Virus record (IMG/VR): IMGVR_UViG_3300035208_002115
Source: a virus
Taxonomy: Duplodnaviria > Caudoviricetes
Strand: one strand, 5' to 3'
Length of the DNA: 64,000 nucleotides
Shown here: piece after piece, positions 1,396-59,888 of the stretch
How the letters are laid out: the number at the start of each line of letters is the position of its first letter
Numbering within the stretch: the first letter of the stretch is position 1
The notes under the pieces: generated by a model
Told to the model about the DNA's origin: nothing
Database searches by the model: none
Seen by the model: only the letters and a program-made list of their open reading frames with translations
Translations under genes and position numbers: made by a program

Positions 1396-2076
1396 CTAAA
1401 ATGTGAACGTCAAATTAGCAAACAGTTTTTTCGAATCTGGATTCAACATCAATGTTGTACTAATAGGTATCGAATAAGAACTATTAACATTTATTTCTTT
1501 AGTGAGTGTTAAACCAAGGTTAACAATGGCTAAACCATCAGCATAAAAGGATTTATAAGGGTTAACACCACAGAAAATATTTATATTTTTAATCAAATAA
1601 CTGGCTTCAACATAAGAAGAATATAATTGATTATCATTTTCATCTTTATCCCAGCCCCACACGAAAACATTATATGATAGTGTCAACGGAAACTTAAACG
1701 AATAACCAAGTGATGCTTCAAGTATATTATTTGTTGAGTCACTATAATTAAATACATCATCAACATTAAGCATATAATCGGTCACCATCAAATACAATGA
1801 CTTATAAGCCACTTTATAATACAAATCAACCTCTTTATAAGAACCATCCAATGCAAATGAACTGAATGTTCCTATTTCATTTGTCCAAAGAGAATCAGCC
1901 TTTGTAAAGTGAATAATAGGTTGAACACTTATTTTATCCGATAGATTTTGTCCTCTCCAGATAAAATTTGAGGTAACATTTGCGTTAAAGTGTGTATCTC
2001 CTTCTTGTGAATAGGACACAAAAGACAAAAACATGATACAAATTAATAATACTGTTTTTTTCATAGTTTTTTTCAT
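1396..2076 (-). CDS. Outer-membrane beta-barrel-like protein, Bacteroidetes type (TorF/Gcw_chp-like)
   Basis: Signal peptide, SNFIWRG...VQP, EVDLY, terminal Phe. Confidence 0.6.
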   Translation of the reverse strand: MKKTMKKTVLLICIMFLSFVSYSQEGDTHFNANVTSNFIWRGQNLSDKISVQPIIHFTKADSLWTNEIGTFSSFALDGSYKEVDLYYKVAYKSLYLMVTDYMLNVDDVFNYSDSTNNILEASLGYSFKFPLTLSYNVFVWGWDKDENDNQLYSSYVEASYLIKNINIFCGVNPYKSFYADGLAIVNLGLTLTKEINVNSSYSIPISTTLMLNPDSKKLFANLTFTF

Positions 2077-15513: not shown

Positions 15514-16068
15514 GTGAAATATATTAGATTATATGAGAGTTTTATATCGGGAATTTTTTATCATGGTTCGACTGATAAAAATTTATCAGGAAAAAAAGGT
15601 ATTCATGTGGGAACTAAATTAGCAGCAACACAAGCTTTAGAAGCAAGAATAGGTGTTCCAGCAGTTGGTGAATGGGATGGTACAAGAGAATATGGTAAAA
15701 CATTACTTGCAGGTAAACACTCACTTGAAACAAAACCAGAAAATAAATGGAAATGTACAGGTTTTAATTGTGGCAAGAATATACCAGAAGATGATTATTA
15801 TCCCACACAACGAAATGAAAGAGCTGAATATAGTGATAGAACCCCCATATCATTTGATTGTAAACCAATAATATTTCCTGTCAAAATAATAGGGAAAATG
15901 ACAAATACACCATATAACTGTCATTCTGATGTAAAGGCAAATAGTCTAATGTTAAGAAATTTAAAAATGAATAACGCTAAAAGTGGTTATTATTATATTA
16001 ATGATGGTGAAGATAGTGGTTCTGTTTCGGCAGTTGTTCCAGATAAAACTTTTTTAGAAATATTATGA
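15514..16068 (+). CDS. Leader-bearing protein (MKYIRLYESF) with ADP-ribosyltransferase-like domain
   Basis: FYHGS...GIHVGT...YINDGED. Confidence 0.6.
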   Translation: MKYIRLYESFISGIFYHGSTDKNLSGKKGIHVGTKLAATQALEARIGVPAVGEWDGTREYGKTLLAGKHSLETKPENKWKCTGFNCGKNIPEDDYYPTQRNERAEYSDRTPISFDCKPIIFPVKIIGKMTNTPYNCHSDVKANSLMLRNLKMNNAKSGYYYINDGEDSGSVSAVVPDKTFLEIL

Positions 16069-16622
16069 AGTATTTAAAATTATATGAAAATTTCAAAGAT
16101 GTTATCACTAAATGTGATGGTTGTAAATATTTTGATATGAATAATATAGGAAATATTTATGCAGCATATGAAAATCCAATTTATTCATTAGTTTATAAAA
16201 GAAAAATTGAAGAATTAATATTTATGAAACCAAAACAATATATTTACACCATCGCTCAAAATTTTGGTGGATTATCTTATGACGATGCCATATCACATGT
16301 CAGTGATGAAAAAGTTGATAAATATGTTGAAGCTATGAAAAATGGTGCAAAATTTCCTGTCGGTAATTATCAAGAAAAATCTTCATTACAAGAAGGTAGA
16401 CATCGTGCAATAGCAATGATTAAATTGGGTTGTGAAACTATGCCCATTATAAAAATAACGATGGATGTACCTAATGATTATATAAATGAAATTGTTAGTG
16501 AAATAAAAGATATGAGTAGAGAAGAACTTAATCAATATTATATAAACAAAGGTTATCAAGGAATCACAAATTTAGACTGGAGTGAATTACATTCATATAT
16601 AAAATATAAATATCAAGAATGA
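16065..16622 (+). CDS. Leader-bearing protein (MKYLKLYENF) with ParB/Srx-like domain
   Basis: KVDKYVEAMKNGAKFP...QEGRHRAIA. Confidence 0.6.
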   Translation: MKYLKLYENFKDVITKCDGCKYFDMNNIGNIYAAYENPIYSLVYKRKIEELIFMKPKQYIYTIAQNFGGLSYDDAISHVSDEKVDKYVEAMKNGAKFPVGNYQEKSSLQEGRHRAIAMIKLGCETMPIIKITMDVPNDYINEIVSEIKDMSREELNQYYINKGYQGITNLDWSELHSYIKYKYQE

Positions 16623-17011
16623 AATATTTAAAATTATTTGAAAATTTTACAGATATTATAACATTATATCATGGAACATGTTTAGATAATGCTAAAGAAT
16701 TAGTTAAAAATGGTTGGAAACCTTTTAGTGGTATAGTCGGTGGTAATATGGGACAAAATAATTATTTATACGTAACATCCGAAATAGAAGATGCTTTATG
16801 GTTTGCCGAAGAAAAAGGTTGTAATACAATAATTGAAATAAAAAATATACCTATTAATTATTTAAAATTTGACCCAGAAGATGGTGATGCAGATTTATAT
16901 AATTATAATATTAATGTGGCAATTAATAAATTAAAAAATGGTTATGAATCACCAATAAAATTTGTTATAATACACGAACTTAGTGCTGATAAATTTAAAA
17001 TTATACAATGA
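16619..17011 (+). CDS. Leader-bearing protein (MKYLKLFENF) with ART-like domain
   Basis: LYHGT...NGW...YLYVTS...ALWFA. Confidence 0.6.
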   Translation: MKYLKLFENFTDIITLYHGTCLDNAKELVKNGWKPFSGIVGGNMGQNNYLYVTSEIEDALWFAEEKGCNTIIEIKNIPINYLKFDPEDGDADLYNYNINVAINKLKNGYESPIKFVIIHELSADKFKIIQ

Positions 17012-17553
17012 AATATTTAAAATTATACGAAGAATTTAATGAAGATGAAGAAAAATATAAAACCGTTGAACTTGGTAGTGTCACTAATGAAAATGGTTGG
17101 AGAATTCATAAATTAAATTCATATGAGGAATTAAAATTTATTTTAGATAATTTTTATCAAGGTAAAAAATGGATTCATAATGAAAATGGTTTTGATATTT
17201 ATTATTGGGAAAACACAGACTGGGATAAAGATGAAAATGAACCATTCTGGTATAAAAAAATGGTAATATCTATTAATCCCAGAGAATTTATAATAAAGAC
17301 TAAAACATTGGAAGAAAAACCATTATATTCTATTAGAGACGAAAAAAATGGAATGACCAGAGAACAAGAATTAAAATTGCGTACTTGGATAGGTACTTCT
17401 AAAAACCCAAAAAGTGGTGAATTAAAAGGTGGTTATTTTGGAATGAAAAATGGGTTTGCCTTGATGAGAAGTCCTTTATCTGGTACAGTTTATAAAATAG
17501 ATAAAGATGGTGAAATGTTCAATAATAGTACGGGTGAAAAATTAGGAGAATAA
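17008..17553 (+). CDS. Leader-bearing protein (MKYLKLYEEF), unknown payload
   Basis: ORF, shared leader. Confidence 0.65.
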   Translation: MKYLKLYEEFNEDEEKYKTVELGSVTNENGWRIHKLNSYEELKFILDNFYQGKKWIHNENGFDIYYWENTDWDKDENEPFWYKKMVISINPREFIIKTKTLEEKPLYSIRDEKNGMTREQELKLRTWIGTSKNPKSGELKGGYFGMKNGFALMRSPLSGTVYKIDKDGEMFNNSTGEKLGE

Positions 17554-17554
17554 T

Positions 17555-18052
17555 ATGAGAATTATTAAAACATTCGAGAATTTTAATGAAAAAAATATTA
17601 ATGAATATATAGCATATCATTCAACCAACCATACAATAAAAGAATTTAATTTTGATGATATTGATATCGGTGCTGGGTCATCAACAAGAATAGATGGTAT
17701 TTTTTTTAGTAATATTCCACAAAAATCATGGGGTGAATATACATATAAAGTAAAAATTATTTCTGAAAACCCAGCAATTTTTAATTTAAATAAGAGTCGA
17801 TTAGATAGTCTGGGTGTACAAGAACTCTTTGATGCATTTTTAAGAGGTGAGACATCATACATGTTAGAAGATTTAATTGATAATGGTGGTATGGAAGAAG
17901 ATGTAGCAGAACAATTAATAGACCAATGGGAAAAATTAGATTTAATTGTAATTACACATCAAATATATGCTAAACATGATATTGAATATATAGTACCAGC
18001 CCCATATTATAATAGTAAAAGTGCTGAAATAATTAATTTAGGATTAATATGA
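17555..18052 (+). CDS. Leader-bearing protein (MRIIKTFENF) with ART-like domain
   Basis: AYHST...FNF...GIFFS...WG...EYIV. Confidence 0.6.
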   Translation: MRIIKTFENFNEKNINEYIAYHSTNHTIKEFNFDDIDIGAGSSTRIDGIFFSNIPQKSWGEYTYKVKIISENPAIFNLNKSRLDSLGVQELFDAFLRGETSYMLEDLIDNGGMEEDVAEQLIDQWEKLDLIVITHQIYAKHDIEYIVPAPYYNSKSAEIINLGLI

Positions 18053-18621
18053 AAAAAATAAAAACATTTGAAAATTTTTTATTAAAAGAATATAATAACA
18101 CTGATTCATTTCTCTCTGACTATGAAAGTGCTAAAAAATATGCTTATGATAACATAGATGGTGTTTCAGATGCATTTGATGATTATAAAGAAGACCCAGA
18201 TAACATACAGGCATCTTATAGTAGAGATAATTATATAGAAAGAATCGATATGTATGTTGATAAATACAATAAATTAAAAAACGAATATAATATAACAATT
18301 TATCGTTTAATAAAATTAAATTCCATTGATGATTTAGATTTAACAAATATTGGAAAACACTGGAGTTTTGAACAAGATGGTGTTGGAGCTTATGGAGAAC
18401 AACATCCAAATAGGGATATGATGTCAACGGGTAAACCATTTATTTTAGAGGCAGAAGTAAGTCCTAAAAATATAGACTGGGTGTATGGATTTAATTCATT
18501 TATATGGTACGGAGAAGACCAATGGGAATGTGCATTAAATAAAGGAACAAAAGTCACTATAAATAAAATAAATGATGATGAACTGAAAACACCCATTATT
18601 GCGTTAGTGGGTGAACATTAA
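18049..18621 (+). CDS. Leader-bearing protein (MKKIKTFENF) with R-S-E-type ART-like domain
   Basis: IYRLI...HWS...EDQWE. Confidence 0.55.
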   Translation: MKKIKTFENFLLKEYNNTDSFLSDYESAKKYAYDNIDGVSDAFDDYKEDPDNIQASYSRDNYIERIDMYVDKYNKLKNEYNITIYRLIKLNSIDDLDLTNIGKHWSFEQDGVGAYGEQHPNRDMMSTGKPFILEAEVSPKNIDWVYGFNSFIWYGEDQWECALNKGTKVTINKINDDELKTPIIALVGEH

Positions 18622-18634
18622 AAAATATTTAATT

Positions 18635-19054
18635 ATGAAACATCTAAAATTATTTGAAGAATTTAATGATAAGCGAATAATCGGTTATCATGTAACCAAT
18701 CAATCCAATTTAAAAAGAATTTTAAAAACTGGATTAGAACCACGAGTTCCCGAAGATTTTGGTGAAAAGGGTGATGTAAAAGGGGTTTATTTATTTAAAA
18801 CAGCATCGGACACTGATAATGCACTGAGTAATTGGTTTGGTGAAAGAATAGAAGAATGGGAAGAAGAACATGATAAAGAATTTAAAGAGTGTATTTTAGT
18901 TGTTGATTTAACTGGTTTAGATTTATATAATTCTGTTGAATTTGAATGGACTTGTTTAGAACATATATCACCAGATAGAATAATTCAAGTAATTAAAAAT
19001 AATGAACAAGTCTTAGGTATATGGGATGAATTATCTAAAAAATATGACTATTAA
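18635..19054 (+). CDS. Leader-bearing protein (MKHLKLFEEF) with ART-like domain
   Basis: Start reassigned to the ATG at 18635; GYHVT...ILKTGLEP...GVYLF...EW...HISP. Confidence 0.6.
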   Translation: MKHLKLFEEFNDKRIIGYHVTNQSNLKRILKTGLEPRVPEDFGEKGDVKGVYLFKTASDTDNALSNWFGERIEEWEEEHDKEFKECILVVDLTGLDLYNSVEFEWTCLEHISPDRIIQVIKNNEQVLGIWDELSKKYDY

Positions 19055-19086
19055 ATTAATATATAACTAAAAATAAATACAATAAT

Positions 19087-19329
19087 ATGAACGAATTTAA
19101 AACATTCAAAAATTATATCAAAGAAAATAATGTCGAAAGTGAAGTCAAAAATACCCAAGATGATTTATTTGATGAAATAATAGAAGAAGCTGACATCGCT
19201 TTTTGGAATGTTATAACTAAAAGTTTTCCTGAAATAACTACTGGTGATTTTCCAATTGATGCACATGTAGAATTCCAAGTTGCCCAAGAAAAAGCAGTTA
19301 AAACATGGATAGATTTTAATAAGAAATAA
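19087..19329 (+). CDS. Leader-bearing small protein (MNEFKTFKNYIKE)
   Basis: ORF, upstream TAATATATA at 19057-19065. Confidence 0.65.
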   Translation: MNEFKTFKNYIKENNVESEVKNTQDDLFDEIIEEADIAFWNVITKSFPEITTGDFPIDAHVEFQVAQEKAVKTWIDFNKK

Positions 19330-23158: not shown

Positions 23159-26083
23159 ATGAACAACAAAACATGTTTAGTTATGAAAAAGATTTTTCTA
23201 TTGATAATTTTTTTTGTATATAGTATACATATCATCGGACAAGATTGTAGTATTATATCAAAAGCAAATGATATTCTTCCCACCGATTTATGTTCTCCAG
23301 TATCTGTTGATTGGACTATAACTTATAGAGGTGTAAATAATAATAGTACACCAGTAATTATTCGTTATGATTGGGATGATGGTACAGTTCAAACCGTTCC
23401 AGCCACAAATACCAATCCAGACCCAACTGTACGTGAATGGAGCGCAATTTTAAACCACACTTATAATTCAAATAATCAATGTAATTATCAACCTTCTGCC
23501 ACTTTAATTGTTAATGGTCAAGTGTGTACATCATCTGAACAACAACAAATTGTAACTGTATGGGATGATGATAATCATAATGGTGGTCGTCTAAGAATAA
23601 CACCAACTATTTATCCTATTTGTTTTGGTAATAGTGCCAATGTTCGTTTTAGGGATGTTACAAGATTTAACTGTGTTCCACCACAAGAAAATGATGTTCC
23701 GAATTTAGAGACAAGGTGGATTCAATGGGTGTATGGTACAGATATTACGATGACTGGTACACCAGTCACTATAAATGGTGTATCACAAACCTTCCCTTAT
23801 TATGGAAATATTATTACTCTACCAGCACCAGTATCTGGTTCTGGAATTTATAGTCAATGGTTAAATGTTGCTAATGATAAGTTAATAGGACAATATTTTC
23901 AAGTTACGTTAAGATATTGGAATTATTGTAATCCATATGATGACCCAAACATACCCGGCCTACCAACCGACTTAATCAATGGGGACAATGACCCTGTTAC
24001 AACCACTGCTATTATATTAATAGTACCGTATCCAGATGCAACAATAAATAAAACGCCAGATATTTGTCGAACTGCGAGTCCAATAAATCTAACTGCTATT
24101 ACCAATGGTGGTACGTGGTCAGGAGTTGGTATAATAAATGCAACAAGTGGTTTATTTTCACCGACAGTTGCAGGTTCTGGACAACATGTAATTAGATATG
24201 ATGTAACTGATGGAAATGGATGTAGTAATTGGGATACTGCAATAGTAAATGTATTATCAACACCCGTTGTTAATATAACTGATTTTGCACCAATATGTTT
24301 TACAACAGATACATTTGATTTAGATGTAGATTTTCCTCTTGGTATGTGGTCTGGTGACGGAATAACTGATAATACACTTGGGTATTTTTCACCAACACGA
24401 ACAGGAGATTATACAATTAGTTTTTCAACACCACCTGATACGAATGGTTGTGTGGGAGTTGACCAAACAACAATTACAGTATATGATTTACCAAATGCTT
24501 GGTTTGTAACCAAGGATTCAGCCTTTTGTGATAATAATGTTAATATTATACCAATTGAGATACACATTGAACTTTTCGGTGGTGTGACTAATTTAATATT
24601 ATCAAGAAATGGTGTATCTCAAACTATAAACAATATTACTACAAATCAAATATCAGTCAATGATACAATTGATACTAATGGTTTATATGATTATAATTTG
24701 ATTAGTATAACAGAATATCATGATTCATTGGTTTGTTCAGCTTCATTGAGTGATTCAATAGAATTAGATGTTTATCCACTTCCTAATTCGGAATTTACAA
24801 TAATGACTGATAATTATTGTAGTCCTGTCATAGCTAATTTTACAGCACAAACTGGTTATTTTAGATATGATTGGAATTTTAATGATGGTGCATCAGAAAC
24901 AAATTCTTTGACATCATTAGTTCATGGATATGTTAATAACACAATAATCGATACCACATTTCACCCAACTTTGACGGTTTACACAAACAATAATTGTGTA
25001 TCAACAACTACACATGATATTCATATTTATCCAAGGCCAATTGCTGATTTTTTTGTTGCACCGATAGAACAGATATTACCAAGCTCGACTGTTTTGTTGG
25101 ATAATTTAAGTAATGCAGGTAATTGGATGTATTATTGGAACTTTGGTGATGGAACTTTTAATAATGTGAAAGAACCATCGACCCATACATATATGAATTA
25201 TGGTGAGTATCGAATTTTTTTAAGAACATACAGTTTATATTGTTCTGATAGTCTTACTAAATCTATTTTAATACTTCCACCACCACCATCAGCTCGTATT
25301 GAATCTGATTCATCTGGTTGTCCACCATTAATTATGAGTTTTAAAAATTATACCTCATATGCTGAGAGTTTCATATGGGATTTCGGAGATGGGTTTTATT
25401 CAACTGAATATGAACCGACACATACATTTTATGAAAGTGGAACATATAATATCGTTATGACTGCTTATGGTATGAGTGGTATAACAAAAGATTCGGTTAA
25501 TATTACAATATATTCTCATCCAATTGCAATGTTTAATGTGTATCCTGAAGAAGCGGTTGACTTGAATCAAATATTCAAATTTTATAACACATCAATAGAT
25601 ATGAGTAGATGCTATTGGTTATTTGGTGATGGTAATACATCAACTGATGAACACCCATCATATTCTTATTCAAGCGAAGGCGTGTATGATATAACATTAT
25701 ACGTATGGAGTGAAAATAATTGTACGGATTCAATAATAAAAGATAATTTAATTAGAGTTAATTCAGATAATGGTCAAATAATATTTCCAAATGCTTTTAA
25801 ATGGAATCTCACTGGCTCTACTGGTGGGTATTGGAATAATAATATAATTGATAATACAGTGTTCAGACCACACCCAACAAACGTTTCTGAATATAGGTTG
25901 GAAATTTATAATAGGTGGGGAAACTTAATTTATCAATCTGACCAATTAGAAAAGGGTTGGGATGGGTATCTTAATGATGGAATGCATTTGGCTGAACAGG
26001 GTGTATATGTCTGGAAATGTTGGGTGACTTATACATCTGGAAGAAAAGAAATATTAAGCGGTTATGTAACGTTTTTACATTAA
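23159..26083 (+). CDS. PKD-repeat protein with T9SS type-B (gliding-motility-associated) C-terminal sorting domain
   Basis: Signal peptide, multiple WxFGDG PKD units, C-terminal FPNAF...IYNRWG...GWDG...QGVY...GYVTF. Confidence 0.9.
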   Translation: MNNKTCLVMKKIFLLIIFFVYSIHIIGQDCSIISKANDILPTDLCSPVSVDWTITYRGVNNNSTPVIIRYDWDDGTVQTVPATNTNPDPTVREWSAILNHTYNSNNQCNYQPSATLIVNGQVCTSSEQQQIVTVWDDDNHNGGRLRITPTIYPICFGNSANVRFRDVTRFNCVPPQENDVPNLETRWIQWVYGTDITMTGTPVTINGVSQTFPYYGNIITLPAPVSGSGIYSQWLNVANDKLIGQYFQVTLRYWNYCNPYDDPNIPGLPTDLINGDNDPVTTTAIILIVPYPDATINKTPDICRTASPINLTAITNGGTWSGVGIINATSGLFSPTVAGSGQHVIRYDVTDGNGCSNWDTAIVNVLSTPVVNITDFAPICFTTDTFDLDVDFPLGMWSGDGITDNTLGYFSPTRTGDYTISFSTPPDTNGCVGVDQTTITVYDLPNAWFVTKDSAFCDNNVNIIPIEIHIELFGGVTNLILSRNGVSQTINNITTNQISVNDTIDTNGLYDYNLISITEYHDSLVCSASLSDSIELDVYPLPNSEFTIMTDNYCSPVIANFTAQTGYFRYDWNFNDGASETNSLTSLVHGYVNNTIIDTTFHPTLTVYTNNNCVSTTTHDIHIYPRPIADFFVAPIEQILPSSTVLLDNLSNAGNWMYYWNFGDGTFNNVKEPSTHTYMNYGEYRIFLRTYSLYCSDSLTKSILILPPPPSARIESDSSGCPPLIMSFKNYTSYAESFIWDFGDGFYSTEYEPTHTFYESGTYNIVMTAYGMSGITKDSVNITIYSHPIAMFNVYPEEAVDLNQIFKFYNTSIDMSRCYWLFGDGNTSTDEHPSYSYSSEGVYDITLYVWSENNCTDSIIKDNLIRVNSDNGQIIFPNAFKWNLTGSTGGYWNNNIIDNTVFRPHPTNVSEYRLEIYNRWGNLIYQSDQLEKGWDGYLNDGMHLAEQGVYVWKCWVTYTSGRKEILSGYVTFLH

Positions 26084-27827: not shown

Positions 27828-29051
27828 ATTTTTTGAACAGGAAACACCGAAATCTTCAGTTTCGGTGAGGAATGTTCAGCCTATTATTTTTTAAAACTTT
27901 TTACAGTTTTTAATATATATATTAAAAATGAACATCACATTAAAAATTAAATTAGAACCCACTGAAGAACAAAAAATTTTTCTTTTACAGACATTGAAAG
28001 AAACTAATGATGTTTGTAATCTGATTTCTGATTTTGCATGGGGTGACAAAATATTCAACAAATTCAAATTACACTATCAATTATATCACAAATTGAAAAA
28101 TTCTACTGATTTGAGTAGTCAAATGTTAGTAAGATGTTTTCAAAAAGTAAGTTCTTCTTACAAAGTAGATAAGAAACGTAAAAGAATATTCAAAGAATAT
28201 GGTTCTATTGCATATGATTCCAGAATATTAACATATAATTTACATAATAATATTATATCTATTTGGTGTATAGGAGGTAGACAGAAAATTAAATTCGTAA
28301 CACATAATCAAGAATATTTAAAATATATTAAAGGTGAAGGTGACTTAGTATACAAAAAAGGTAAATTTTACATATATCAAACTATCAATGTACCAGAAAA
28401 AAAGCTAATAATTAATAATGATTATTTAGGTATTGATATGGGGATTACTGATATTATTGTTACATCAGATAATTTACATTATTCTTCTGATGTTTTAAAT
28501 GAATATAGGGAAAAAAGACAAAGAATTCGTAGTTCTTTACAAAGCAAAGGTACTAAGGGGTGTAAAAAACTCTTGAAACAATTAAGTGGTAAGGAAAGAA
28601 CACATTCAAGTATTATTAATCACACTATTTCTAAACAATTAGTTAATAATGCTATCGAAACTAAAAGAAATATAGTATTAGAAGATTTAAAAGGAATTAG
28701 GTTTAACAACAAAAGAAATTCAAAGAAATTTAGAATTAAATTAGGAAAGTGGAATTTTTCACAATTAAGACAGTATATTGAATACAAATCAAAAATAAAT
28801 GGTGTTCAATGTATGGTAGTACAACCTAATTATACAAGCCAAACTTGTAATTGTTGTAAACATATTGGTAAAAGAAATGGGAAAGAATTCAAATGTGAAA
28901 ACTGTGGATTAACAATAGATGCTGATTATAATGCAGCATTGAATATTAGTTTACTTGGGGGTGCTATAAATCGCCCTGAACAATCAACTATGTACTGTTG
29001 TATATAGTTAGGTTGAAAACCGCTAAATCTTTTAGTTTAGCGGTAGTTTAT
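27828..29051 (+). mobile_element. IS200/IS605-family (IS1341-like, TnpB-only) element
   Basis: Left hairpin CACCGAAA-TCTTCAG-TTTCGGTG (27845-27867); right hairpin ACCGCTAAA-TCTTTTAG-TTTAGCGGT (29019-29044), element ending TAGTTTAT; inserted 3' of TTCAT; ends fixed by reconstructing the split gene. Confidence 0.85.
27928..29007 (+). CDS. tnpB: RNA-guided endonuclease TnpB
   Basis: RuvC motifs GIDMG, VLEDL, DADYNAA; Zn ribbon YTSQTCNCC...CENCG. Confidence 0.93.
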   Translation: MNITLKIKLEPTEEQKIFLLQTLKETNDVCNLISDFAWGDKIFNKFKLHYQLYHKLKNSTDLSSQMLVRCFQKVSSSYKVDKKRKRIFKEYGSIAYDSRILTYNLHNNIISIWCIGGRQKIKFVTHNQEYLKYIKGEGDLVYKKGKFYIYQTINVPEKKLIINNDYLGIDMGITDIIVTSDNLHYSSDVLNEYREKRQRIRSSLQSKGTKGCKKLLKQLSGKERTHSSIINHTISKQLVNNAIETKRNIVLEDLKGIRFNNKRNSKKFRIKLGKWNFSQLRQYIEYKSKINGVQCMVVQPNYTSQTCNCCKHIGKRNGKEFKCENCGLTIDADYNAALNISLLGGAINRPEQSTMYCCI

Positions 29052-29452
29052 TATAAGCATCTTTAGACCCATAAACACCAATAACAAAATCATTCGTTTT
29101 AGTTTCGGCTGGAAATTCTATTAAACGAGTGAAATTATAGATAAACATAGCTTGTGTTCTTTGAATAGTGTTTTGACTATACAAATTGAATAATATAAAA
29201 CAAAAAATTATTATACTTATCATCTTTTTCATAATATTATTTTTAAATATATTTTTTATACGCCTTATACTTTATATGGTTACATATTATGAGCAATATG
29301 AAAATATAAATCATAATACACATACTTACAAATAGTTAGGATTATTAATTATATCATATTAAAAATAAATCAAACCTTTTAATGATTTATTAATACAATT
29401 GTTATAGGTGGTTCTTAATATATAGATTCAAAGAACACATTTATATAAAAGA

Positions 29453-30044: not shown

Positions 30045-30296
30045 ATGGAACATTTAAAACCGTTTGAATTACATAAATTAAATGAGAATAAAACTACCAA
30101 TAATTGGGTAGTTACTTGTTATAATAAAAGTAATAAAATAATAAAACAATGGACTATTGAAGATAGGACTGAACATGAAGCTGAAAAAGAAGCCGAACCA
30201 AATATACCAAATGATGTATATGATTGGTCATTAATGCCTAAAAAATTCTGGGATGATATTAAAAAATCTGAAAAAAGAATTAAAAATGATAAATAA
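30045..30296 (+). CDS. Leader-bearing small protein (MEHLKPFELHKLNE)
   Basis: Shared leader. Confidence 0.65.
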   Translation: MEHLKPFELHKLNENKTTNNWVVTCYNKSNKIIKQWTIEDRTEHEAEKEAEPNIPNDVYDWSLMPKKFWDDIKKSEKRIKNDK

Positions 30297-30298
30297 TT

Positions 30299-30556
30299 AT
30301 GATACATATTAAACTATTTGAAGAATTTAATGATGACTCTACCGATATTAAAGTAATAGTCTCTAAGAAATATTCCATTGACCAAGCTGAACGTCTAATA
30401 TCAAATTTAGAAGATATTCACAATATTAGTGGACAATTTATAGATTGGACAGATGATGGTAGAGTTATACTGGAACTGTCTGCCGATGGAACGTGGAATA
30501 AAGAGAATTTCTTAGAATTTATAGAGAATTCTGAATATTTTGATAAAATCATTTAA
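30299..30556 (+). CDS. Leader-bearing small protein (MIHIKLFEEF)
   Basis: Shared leader. Confidence 0.65.
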   Translation: MIHIKLFEEFNDDSTDIKVIVSKKYSIDQAERLISNLEDIHNISGQFIDWTDDGRVILELSADGTWNKENFLEFIENSEYFDKII

Positions 30557-40385: not shown

Positions 40386-40458
40386 CGAGCCAGACAGGAC
40401 TCGAACCTGCGACCAATGAATTTAAAGTCCATTGCTCTACCAACTGAGCTACTGGTTC
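40386..40458 (-). tRNA. tRNA with anticodon UUA (ochre suppressor), Lys-like body, no encoded CCA
   Basis: Cloverleaf: acceptor GAACCAG/CTGGCTC+G; D arm GCTC-AGTTGGTA-GAGC; anticodon arm ATGGA-CTTTAAA-TTCAT; T arm GCAGG-TTCGAGT-CCTGT; anticodon at 40423-40425. Confidence 0.9.
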
Positions 40459-40467
40459 ATAATTGAA

Positions 40468-40475
40468 CAAAAATA
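40468..40475 (-). promoter_or_regulatory. Bacteroidetes-type promoter TATTTTTG upstream of the tRNA
   Basis: TAnnTTTG about 10 nt upstream of the tRNA 5' end. Confidence 0.55.
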
Positions 40476-58369: not shown

Positions 58370-58822
58370 TTATACACTTTTAAATTCGATAAATTCTAAA
58401 ATATTTTCATATATTAAAGAACTTCCAAATATTCCAACCAACGCAGAAAAAGTATCACATATAATATCATTCTTATCTTCCTCGGATATTTCATCCAAAG
58501 TATTTAATACAAATTCTATCTCATCATCATCAATGGAAGTAAAATCGGTAGGTAACTCTACATCTTCTATAATTTCTTCGGTTTCAATCTTACTAAAATA
58601 TTTATCCAAAAAATAATCATCTATTGTATTTTTTGCTATTTTGACTCTTATCAATACCAAATTGTTATCAACAACATCAGTTTCAATTATACCACCAAAA
58701 TAATCATCTATAAAATCGGTGATAATTTGATTAGAAAGACAGGAATTTCCAATCCCATTAATTGAATCTGACAATATACTAATTGAATTCTTTTTAAGAT
58801 AATCGGTATTTAATGTAATCAT
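58370..58822 (-). CDS. Acidic hypothetical protein
   Basis: Asp/Glu-rich ORF. Confidence 0.6.
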   Translation of the reverse strand: MITLNTDYLKKNSISILSDSINGIGNSCLSNQIITDFIDDYFGGIIETDVVDNNLVLIRVKIAKNTIDDYFLDKYFSKIETEEIIEDVELPTDFTSIDDDEIEFVLNTLDEISEEDKNDIICDTFSALVGIFGSSLIYENILEFIEFKSV

Positions 58823-58869
58823 AATTTAAATATAATTTTTAATAAATCATTTTTATATATAAATTAAAT

Positions 58870-59277
58870 ATGAGTTTAAATATGTCATTTATTAAAAATT
58901 ATAACATTTTTATAAACGAAAATATATCTGATGTTAAATTTATCAAACAATATATAGAAAAAACAAATCCACATACTGGTTCAAGAGATGCGTTTCAGGG
59001 AATAGGTCGTTTATCGGATTTTACTTGGAATGTTAAACAAACTTTAATTCAACCAGATGATAAAAAAATAGATTTGGATGATTTATATCCAGCATCTAAA
59101 TTAGATGTTAAGCGATATAAAAAAGCCTATTTAAAGGGGAGTGAATTTCCACCAATAGTACTGGTTGACAAAGGAAATAAATATACTATTTTAGATGGCG
59201 CACATAGATTGAAAGCTGCTATTGAATTGGATGTTCCAATAAGGGCATACATTGGTTATGAAATAAAAAATAAATAA
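58870..59277 (+). CDS. Leader-bearing protein (MSFIKNYNIFINE) with ParB/Srx domain
   Basis: FPPIVL...YTILDGAHRLKAA. Confidence 0.8.
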   Translation: MSLNMSFIKNYNIFINENISDVKFIKQYIEKTNPHTGSRDAFQGIGRLSDFTWNVKQTLIQPDDKKIDLDDLYPASKLDVKRYKKAYLKGSEFPPIVLVDKGNKYTILDGAHRLKAAIELDVPIRAYIGYEIKNK

Positions 59278-59296
59278 TTTACATTTTTTAACATTT

Positions 59297-59330
59297 TTTG
59301 TCATTATGTCAGAAAAAGGTTTTATATTTG
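59297..59330 (+). promoter_or_regulatory. Bacteroidetes-type promoter (TTTG...TATATTTG) upstream of the pth locus
   Basis: -33-like TTTG at 59297-59300, -7 TATATTTG at 59323-59330. Confidence 0.6.
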
Positions 59331-59401
59331 TCACGATTTATTAATTAAAACATTTTGGTACGAAATTCGTACACAATAAAAACAAACAAAATTATTGCAT
59401 T

Positions 59402-59761
59402 ATGAAAGAAACATAAATTTACAACAGACTTTACGTAATCACTCGAAGTGATTTACATCCTTCTACTCAGGCGGTTCAAGCCATACATGCTGGTATTCAA
59501 TTTCAGCATGAACACCCAGAAATTTCAAAATCATGGAATGAATTATCTAATTATTTAGTCTTTTTGTCAGTTAATGACGAAAGGGAACTCCTATCTATTC
59601 ATTCTAAAGCAACTCAACAAGGTATTAAAGCGAGTGTTTTTCAAGAACCCGATTTGAATAATCAGGTTACTGCTATTACATTAGAACCAAGTTCTGATAC
59701 GAGAAAACTATGCTCTAATTTACCCTTGGCATTAAAAAACGTAAGTTTTAACAAAAATTAA
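59402..59761 (+). CDS. pth: PTH2-family peptidyl-tRNA hydrolase with an in-frame TAA at codon 5 (59414-59416)
   Basis: MKET*IYNRLYVITRSDLHPSTQAVQAIHA...FQEPDLNNQVTAITL...LPLAL; the track ORF 59564-59761 is only the C-terminal half. Confidence 0.85.
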
Positions 59762-59771
59762 TTTTAAAGTT

Positions 59772-59816
59772 ATGAAAGACACATAAATTTTCACACGAGG
59801 TTCACCAAGTCCATAG
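59772..59816 (+). other. Second minigene MKDT* with in-frame readthrough extension IFTRGSPSP*
   Basis: TATGAAAGACACATAAATTT (59771-59790) matches 59401-59420 at 19 of 20 positions. Confidence 0.7.
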
Positions 59817-59888
59817 TTAAAAATTAGGATTTTGAACAAAAATTATTTAAACAAAAATTATTTAAAAACAAAAAACAAAAATTTAATT

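What the first reader, a model, noticed from the sequence alone, without database searches (positions are those of the whole stretch)
40386..40458. Ochre (UUA anticodon) suppressor tRNA in a genome that ends most genes with TAA
Seen: a canonical 73-nt cloverleaf with anticodon loop CU-UUA-AA, one A-C mismatch in the acceptor stem, a G discriminator and an upstream TAnnTTTG promoter at the head of an operon. The D and T arms closely resemble bacterial tRNA-Lys(UUU), so this looks like a U36A change, as in the E. coli lysine ochre suppressors. Known: phage recoding usually involves UAG or UGA. Here TAA remains the dominant stop, so the genome is not recoded. Inference: the tRNA provides partial, regulated readthrough of selected UAAs (such as pth), or interferes with host termination or anticodon-nuclease defence.
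Basis: partly seen in the sequence, partly recalled or inferred. Interest (0 to 1): 0.85.

Follow-up and report, generated by a model that had tools for sequence, protein, structure and literature searches.

The report
Ochre tRNA unlocking a phage operon
A giant phage that uses the normal genetic code keeps a well-formed tRNA that reads the stop codon UAA, and it most likely serves as the key to two deliberate UAA stops in a small operon 19 kb away, a switch design that over a hundred related phage loci share (mostly with UAG) and that I found in no paper.

Summary
The tRNA is real: 73 nt, minus strand, loop CU-UUA-AA, 68 bits against Rfam tRNA. A Logan contig is identical. Two related phages (75-82% DNA identity) also have UUA at this site, so it is old, not an error or a fresh Lys mutant. 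The genome is not recoded (TAA ends 86 of 110 ORFs). Its likely targets are two UAA gates at 59402-60350: codon 5 of a Pth2-fold gene, and codon 5 of a leader whose end pairs over the next gene's AUG. In 140 non-redundant related loci, 120 Pth2 genes carry such an early stop. Gate and anticodon agree in 101 of 102 loci that have both (95 UAG/CUA, 6 UAA/UUA). A complete close relative has a decayed tRNA and lacks the operon. Expression, charging, the inserted residue and the purpose are untested. Lysine ancestry is plausible, not shown. Orphan phage suppressor tRNAs are published (phage G, XacN1); the gated operon I found in no paper. This scan noted the module before on other DNA and on this genome.

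The parts
40386..40458 (-). tRNA with UUA anticodon (anticodon at 40425-40423), Lys-like body, A3.C70 mismatch, G73, no encoded CCA
40468..40475 (-). TAnnTTTG Bacteroidota-type promoter motif, 9 nt upstream of the tRNA; kept in both close relatives
   Evidence: function inferred
59323..59330 (+). TAnnTTTG motif upstream of the gated operon
   Evidence: consensus match only
59402..59761 (+). Pth2-fold gene, Met-Lys-Glu-Thr then UAA at codon 5, then 114 open codons
   Evidence: identical in two sequencing runs
59414..59416 (+). Gate 1: in-frame TAA followed by ATT
59772..59816 (+). Leader ORF MKDT-UAA-IFTRGSPSP-UAG; its first 21 nt repeat the start of the Pth2 gene; RGSP motif
   Evidence: RGSP listed as a shown stall motif in PMC10987492
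59784..59786 (+). Gate 2: in-frame TAA followed by ATT
59810..59893 (+). Predicted 12-bp helix: leader end (59810-59821) pairs with 59882-59893, covering the AUG at 59889
   Evidence: z -1.86; same pairing with other letters in 43 of 73 leaders
59889..60350 (+). Gene X: 153-aa basic protein of no known family, homologues beside Pth2 in related loci
60450..60476 (.). Terminator-like hairpin with T runs on both sides, closing the operon

Best explanation
The tRNA is the trans-acting key of a phage translational switch. It is transcribed from its own promoter, gets CCA and an amino acid (probably Lys) from host enzymes, and competes weakly with release factors at UAA. Two UAA codons in a readthrough-friendly context (UAA-AUU) are placed to report that competition. 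At gate 1, readthrough makes the full Pth2-fold protein; otherwise only a four-residue peptide. At gate 2, readthrough lets the ribosome reach the RGSPSP-stop end of the leader, where it pauses and melts the helix that hides the AUG of gene X. Output of both genes then tracks the ratio of charged suppressor tRNA to release-factor activity. Most likely purpose: to supply a peptidyl-tRNA or ribosome clean-up function in step with faulty termination. Shown by sequence comparison: tRNA, gates, their conservation and matching, the helix, joint loss in one relative. Inferred: expression, charging, stalling, purpose (about 0.35 for the purpose alone).
For: Gate in 120 of 140 non-redundant Pth2 loci (113 TAG, 7 TAA) against 12% for any such ATG-stop arrangement at ordinary genes. 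Those genomes are not amber-recoded: no TAG inside the matched domain against about 6 Gln codons each. Gate and anticodon match in 95 TAG/CUA and 6 TAA/UUA loci, with no TAA/CUA. Starting from UUA tRNAs instead, all 4 records that also hold this Pth2 have TAA gates. Both gates switch together (57 TAG/TAG, 4 TAA/TAA). Purine after the gate in 119 of 120 against about 50% at ordinary stops. Leader end pairs over the next start site in 43 of 73 leaders at shuffle p<=0.05. UUA kept at the syntenic site in G021 with a different, fully paired anticodon stem. G020 (640 kb, complete) has a decayed copy (35 bits, anticodon stem 2 of 5) and no module.
Against: No RNA, ribosome or protein data. Here the tRNA lies 19 kb from the operon, while relatives keep it mostly within 2.5 kb. 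Joint loss rests on one genome. G021 keeps UUA but shows no module in a 59%-complete record, and its copy is cut by the contig end and has one D-stem mismatch. One locus pairs a TAG gate with a doubtful UUA tRNA (L120). The Pth2-fold protein lacks the Lys and the DAGxT motif of archaeal Pth2, so hydrolase activity is unproven. A UUA tRNA should also hit about 78% of the phage's gene ends, and I saw no protective tandem stops (5 of 86). Contingency counts ignore kinship; the tree is poorly resolved.
Confidence: 0.8

Rival explanations
1. The early stops are minigenes followed by re-initiation (for example at AUU) or read by host near-cognate tRNAs. The suppressor tRNA has a separate job and only travels with the operon.
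For: AUU follows the gate in 73 of 120 cases and here; AUU is a rare start codon (established knowledge). The tRNA is far from the operon here.
Against: 47 of 120 gates are followed by other codons, mostly GUA or GUU, which are not usual starts. Stop type follows the anticodon in 101 of 102 loci. The leader helix is reached only by readthrough.
Confidence: 0.08
2. The tRNA's main job is global: to weaken host termination, or to act as a decoy or sentinel for anticodon nucleases that cut Lys-type loops. The gates are a secondary read-out of its level. This can hold together with the best explanation.
For: UUA reads the commonest stop. The acceptor identity of these tRNAs is not conserved (N73: A 59, G 26, U 21, C 3), so the inserted residue seems not to matter. 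This phage also encodes RtcB.
Against: No direct evidence. The close relative G020 does without tRNA and module. Most members use CUA, which reads a rare stop (about 10% of gene ends).
Confidence: 0.2
3. A decaying tRNA-Lys mutant with no function; the pth stop is a nonsense mutation.
For: A3.C70 mismatch and Lys-like body. A decayed copy in G020. An unconserved TAG at codon 20 of this phage's rtcB shows that nonsense changes occur here.
Against: UUA is shared across three diverged phages, with a compensated stem in one. Gates are conserved in position and context in 120 loci. G020 keeps true Lys tRNAs elsewhere, unlike this one (37 and 44 of 73).
Confidence: 0.04
4. The phage recodes or is starting to recode UAA genome-wide.
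For: Cognate tRNA present; Borges et al. propose suppressor gain as a step towards recoding.
Against: 93% coding density under table 11; gene ends at TAA are kept in relatives while the frames behind them differ; in-frame gene pairs are mostly not conserved. Surveys found no support for TAA recoding in phages.
Confidence: 0.02

Closest known systems
Orphan suppressor tRNAs of standard-code jumbo phages: tRNA Sup:UUA of Bacillus phage G (PMC12484599), two CUA tRNAs of XacN1 (PMC5852040)
   Same: Stop-reading tRNA in a giant phage that is not recoded; phage G's is reported as UUA.
   Different: Those papers name no target (XacN1: none found by readthrough of gene ends). Here two conserved internal targets are identified. 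Phage G gave no match to this Pth2 subfamily.
Stop-codon-recoded phages with suppressor tRNAs (code 15 crAss-like and Lak, code 4; 10.1101/2021.08.26.457843, 10.1101/2022.06.29.495998)
   Same: Phage-encoded suppressor tRNA proposed to control when genes are made.
   Different: There many late genes hold in-frame TAG or TGA. Here UAA stays the main stop and only single codons near two starts are read through.
prfB (release factor 2) autoregulation at an early in-frame UGA (established knowledge)
   Same: An early stop makes synthesis of a translation factor depend on weak termination.
   Different: Bypass by a dedicated tRNA in frame, not by +1 frameshift; the product is not a release factor.
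RAPP/RAGP/RGSP arrest leaders such as SecM, ApdA, ApdP (PMC10987492)
   Same: Short upstream ORF ending in an R-G/A-x-P motif whose ribosome would unmask the next gene's start.
   Different: About 14 codons, no secretion signal, not upstream of sec or yidC genes; access to the motif is gated by a stop codon.
E. coli lysine ochre suppressors supG/supL (established knowledge)
   Same: UUA anticodon on a Lys-like body (52 of 58 identical over positions 8-65).
   Different: Those are laboratory single-base mutants of an essential tRNA. This is an extra, old, conserved phage gene with a different acceptor stem and G73.
Archaeal/eukaryotic Pth2 (PF01981; PDB 2zv3, 3erj, 1q7s, 1xty)
   Same: Same fold for the gated protein (TM 0.73-0.77).
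   Different: GK lysine and DAGxT motif replaced; activity untested.

Membership tests
Nonsense (ochre) suppressor tRNA | Intact cloverleaf with canonical D and T loops | tested here: met
   RF00005 68.3 bits, full length; ARAGORN call
Nonsense (ochre) suppressor tRNA | UUA at positions 34-36 of a 7-nt loop with U33 and purine 37 | tested here: met
   CU-UUA-AA; same in L005
Nonsense (ochre) suppressor tRNA | Expressed, matured, aminoacylated and able to read UAA | not testable with these tools
tRNA-Lys-derived suppressor (supG type) | Body closest to tRNA-Lys | tested here: inconclusive
   Lys 59/73 with matching acceptor start, but Met 58 and Arg 58; with the anticodon left out Lys does not lead
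tRNA-Lys-derived suppressor (supG type) | Recent single-base change from a UUU gene at the same site | tested here: not met
   Both relatives have UUA at the syntenic site
Stop-codon-recoded phage | Many genes broken by the stop; coding density rises clearly under the other code | tested here: not met
   Density 0.93 under table 11, TAA ends 86 of 110 ORFs, ends conserved in relatives
RAPP-like arrest leader | RAPP-like motif at the end of an upstream ORF | tested here: met
   RGSP here; RPP, RAPP, RGPP, RGPT in relatives
RAPP-like arrest leader | Leader region pairs over the downstream start site | tested here: met
   (prediction and cross-locus recurrence)
RAPP-like arrest leader | Ribosome stalling at the motif | not testable with these tools
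   Most RAPP-like motifs outside true arrest peptides did not stall (PMC10987492)
RAPP-like arrest leader (Sec/YidC monitors) | N-terminal localisation signal and sec/yidC downstream gene | tested here: not met
   14-codon leader; gene X has no family match
Pth2 peptidyl-tRNA hydrolase | Pth2 fold | tested here: met
   pLDDT 93, Foldseek E 2e-8 to 2zv3
Pth2 peptidyl-tRNA hydrolase | Catalytic Lys and Asp/Thr motif (residues recalled from established knowledge) | tested here: not met
   GK aligns to gap or Tyr, DAGxT to EPD

The most novel reading that the evidence does not exclude
A widespread, undescribed class of phage switch in which a dedicated suppressor tRNA serves only as a reference competitor of release factors, so that stop-gated genes and a stop-gated stalling leader measure the health of translation termination or of tRNA in the infected cell (for instance under host defences) and switch on a rescue operon. 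The UAA form here would sense both release factors.
Probability: 0.35. Interest if true: 0.9.

Novelty: new variant of a known kind. Interest (0 to 1): 0.72.

Why it matters
Suppressor tRNAs in standard-code giant phages have been reported without targets. This gives them concrete, conserved targets and a testable circuit. It shows that even the dominant stop codon UAA can be used as a gate without recoding. It warns that a phage suppressor tRNA is not evidence of recoding, and that gene callers mis-start these Pth2 genes or wrongly switch code. The parts are short and can be tested with reporters.

Tried and rejected
No whole genome was held. Exact tRNA patterns found nothing in viral contigs. 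A looser pattern caught mostly Lys-UUU tRNAs and was corrected. A loose pattern on cultured phages was at chance level. Gln at the gate position in database proteins is a gene-caller artefact (TAG read as Q), so I rejected it as evidence for the inserted residue. In-frame neighbour pairs in the window (42163/42475, 37708/37360, 53954/54374 and others) have their own ATG and are not kept in frame in both relatives: rejected as targets. The Pth2 tree scatters the 10 TAA rows (10 changes, at least 2 forced by strong branches), but the test of one origin did not finish, so repeated origin is likely, not shown. No release factor gene in G020, G021 or three UUA records. Seven paper searches found no description of the gated operon; subscription journals are mostly not covered. 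A paper for the Pth2 catalytic residues was not held.

Full report
Observation. ARAGORN calls tRNA-Stop(tta) and Rfam scores it 68.3 bits over the whole model, with one acceptor mismatch. The loop is CU-UUA-AA, the discriminator G73, and CCA is not encoded. The window is 26.6% GC, 93% coding under table 11, and TAA ends 86 of 110 ORFs. It holds a T4-type terminase, and its proteins lie on a contig of 678,337 bases: a huge phage. Near absence of Shine-Dalgarno sites (3 of 110) and TAnnTTTG motifs before genes point to a Bacteroidota host (inference).

Not an error, and old. A Logan contig is identical over 6489 bases. Two related phages were found through the neighbouring NUDIX gene. G021 (about 75% DNA identity) has the 5' 44 bases of the tRNA at the same site before the contig ends: loop CU-UUA-AC and a different but fully paired anticodon stem. 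G020 (about 82%, 640 kb, complete) has a remnant there that still reads UUA at 34-36 but has 2 of 5 anticodon-stem pairs and a broken T loop, 35 bits. So relatives do not carry Lys-UUU here.

Ancestry. The body is 57/73 identical to E. coli tRNA-Lys. Among 121 Bacteroidota genomes the best match is tRNA-Lys(UUU), 59/73 with the same GAACC acceptor start, but Met and Arg tRNAs reach 58. The loop is one base from Lys and one base from the amber tRNAs described below (best 54/73). Lys origin and Lys charging are the best guess, not shown.

Targets. A scan for frames joined by one TAA left one convincing gene: ATG 59402, MKET, TAA, then 114 codons of Pth2 fold. Ten bases after it a leader repeats the same start: MKDT, TAA, IFTRGSPSP, TAG. 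Both stops are identical in two sequencing runs. Other in-frame neighbours have their own ATG and are not kept in frame in both relatives.

The module. About 180 loci with this Pth2 were fetched. After reduction to 140 at 90% protein identity, 113 have ATG, 1-10 codons, TAG before the domain and 7 have TAA. At ordinary genes such an arrangement occurs in 12% of cases. These genomes are not amber-recoded. Most have a CUA tRNA within about 2.5 kb. Where gate and tRNA are both present, 95 are TAG/CUA, 6 TAA/UUA, none TAA/CUA, and one TAG has a doubtful UUA tRNA (Fisher p 5e-9, kinship and search route not corrected). In the reverse search, UUA tRNAs were collected first; the four records that also hold this Pth2 all have TAA gates in the gene, the leader or both. 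Where Pth2 itself is open, the leader often carries the gate. The base after the gate is a purine in 119 of 120 cases against about 50% at ordinary stops; a 3' purine favours suppression (established knowledge). The tRNAs' acceptor ends vary widely, so the inserted residue seems unimportant. TAA rows are scattered on a weak tree.

The leader switch. Folding 59765-59900 puts the leader's last codons (59810-59821) in a 12-bp helix with the AUG region of gene X (z -1.86, modest alone). In 43 of 73 leaders the end pairs with the next start site or Shine-Dalgarno site better than 95% of shuffles, with different letters. A ribosome that stops at the gate does not reach this arm; one that reads through does. 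RGSP is listed as a shown stall motif of Mannheimia SecM (PMC10987492), though most such motifs do not stall out of context. I took the helix idea from earlier notes of this scan and tested it here.

Joint loss. G020 lacks this Pth2 subfamily and gene X and is the genome with the decayed tRNA. That is one case. G021 is incomplete.

Mechanism. Shown: tRNA, two gates, matching across loci, helix, one joint loss. Inferred: the tRNA is charged, suppresses weakly, and sets the output of Pth2 and gene X by its ratio to release factors. Weakness is needed because UAA ends most genes; the mismatch and G.U pairs may damp it (inference). The likeliest purpose is clean-up of peptidyl-tRNA or stalled ribosomes when termination fails, but the protein lacks the archaeal catalytic motif and gene X has no family.

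A possible third client. I confirmed it: relatives have GAA, Glu in 54 of 62 homologues, and the context is TAG-CCA. UUA can read UAG by wobble (established knowledge), so it may be a tolerated nonsense change; it is not a conserved gate.

Literature. Phage G is reported to carry tRNA Sup:UUA (PMC12484599) and XacN1 two CUA tRNAs with no target found (PMC5852040). Pth2 in jumbo phages is noted without the stop (PMC7824862). Surveys found no support for TAA recoding. I found no paper on the gated operon. This scan has noted the module in at least 43 genomes and on this genome; those notes are not counted as evidence.

Verdict. Real, selected ochre tRNA; most likely the key of a stop-gated operon (0.8). 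New variant of known kinds of control, undescribed as a system as far as I could search. Interest 0.72.

Noticed in passing
L449:1376-1456 (same phage, outside the window): rtcB has an in-frame TAG at codon 20 where close relatives have GAA; databases hold a 430-aa product started at Met28. Not a conserved gate.
   Followed up: yes
L378:700-2100 (XacN1, AP018399): The HD-like/Pth2 fusion gene of this cultured phage begins MK-TAG-TIKAMK; a possible target of its two orphan CUA tRNAs, but a Met follows five codons later.
   Followed up: partly
L373-L376 (LR756500, LR756501, LR756504, LR745206): Published 462-735 kb huge phages carry the amber-gated Pth2; at least two also have gene X, and two have CUA tRNAs within 4 kb.
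   Followed up: partly
L324:1041-1334: TAA-gated Pth2 followed by two tRNAs with 9-nt loops containing UUA, called Leu(TAA) by ARAGORN; possibly atypical ochre readers.
   Followed up: no
L377:80-430 (P0001): Database protein has Gln at the gate only because the gene caller read TAG as Gln; such calls can fake code-15 phages.
   Followed up: yes
L003:9005-9994: A copy of the Pth2 start is fused to a homing-endonuclease-like ORF just upstream of the gated gene.
   Followed up: no
L006:5765-6446: Release factor gene in two pieces (PCRF and RF-1 domains) 3.5 kb from an amber-gated Pth2.
   Followed up: no
L333 (G020:429276-429380): The relative that lacks the module has a different, ungated Pth2-like gene.
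   Followed up: partly
window 15514-19329, 30045-30556, 60476-60868: Many unrelated-looking genes begin with the same MKxLKLF/YEEF-type peptide, several in a tandem array.
   Followed up: no
window 27928-29007: 359-aa ORF that looks like an IS200/IS605 TnpB by its N-terminus (recalled, not tested).
   Followed up: no
window 1396-2076, 23159-26083, 29032-29232: Proteins with signal-peptide-like starts resembling Bacteroidota envelope or secreted proteins.
   Followed up: no
window 58822-60900: The gated operon sits at a rearrangement junction relative to G020 and G021.
   Followed up: partly
L166, L167, L180: Large contigs with this Pth2 and CUA tRNAs sit in archaeal MAGs; L166 matches viral record L013 in length and range, so these are probably mis-binned phages.
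   Followed up: no
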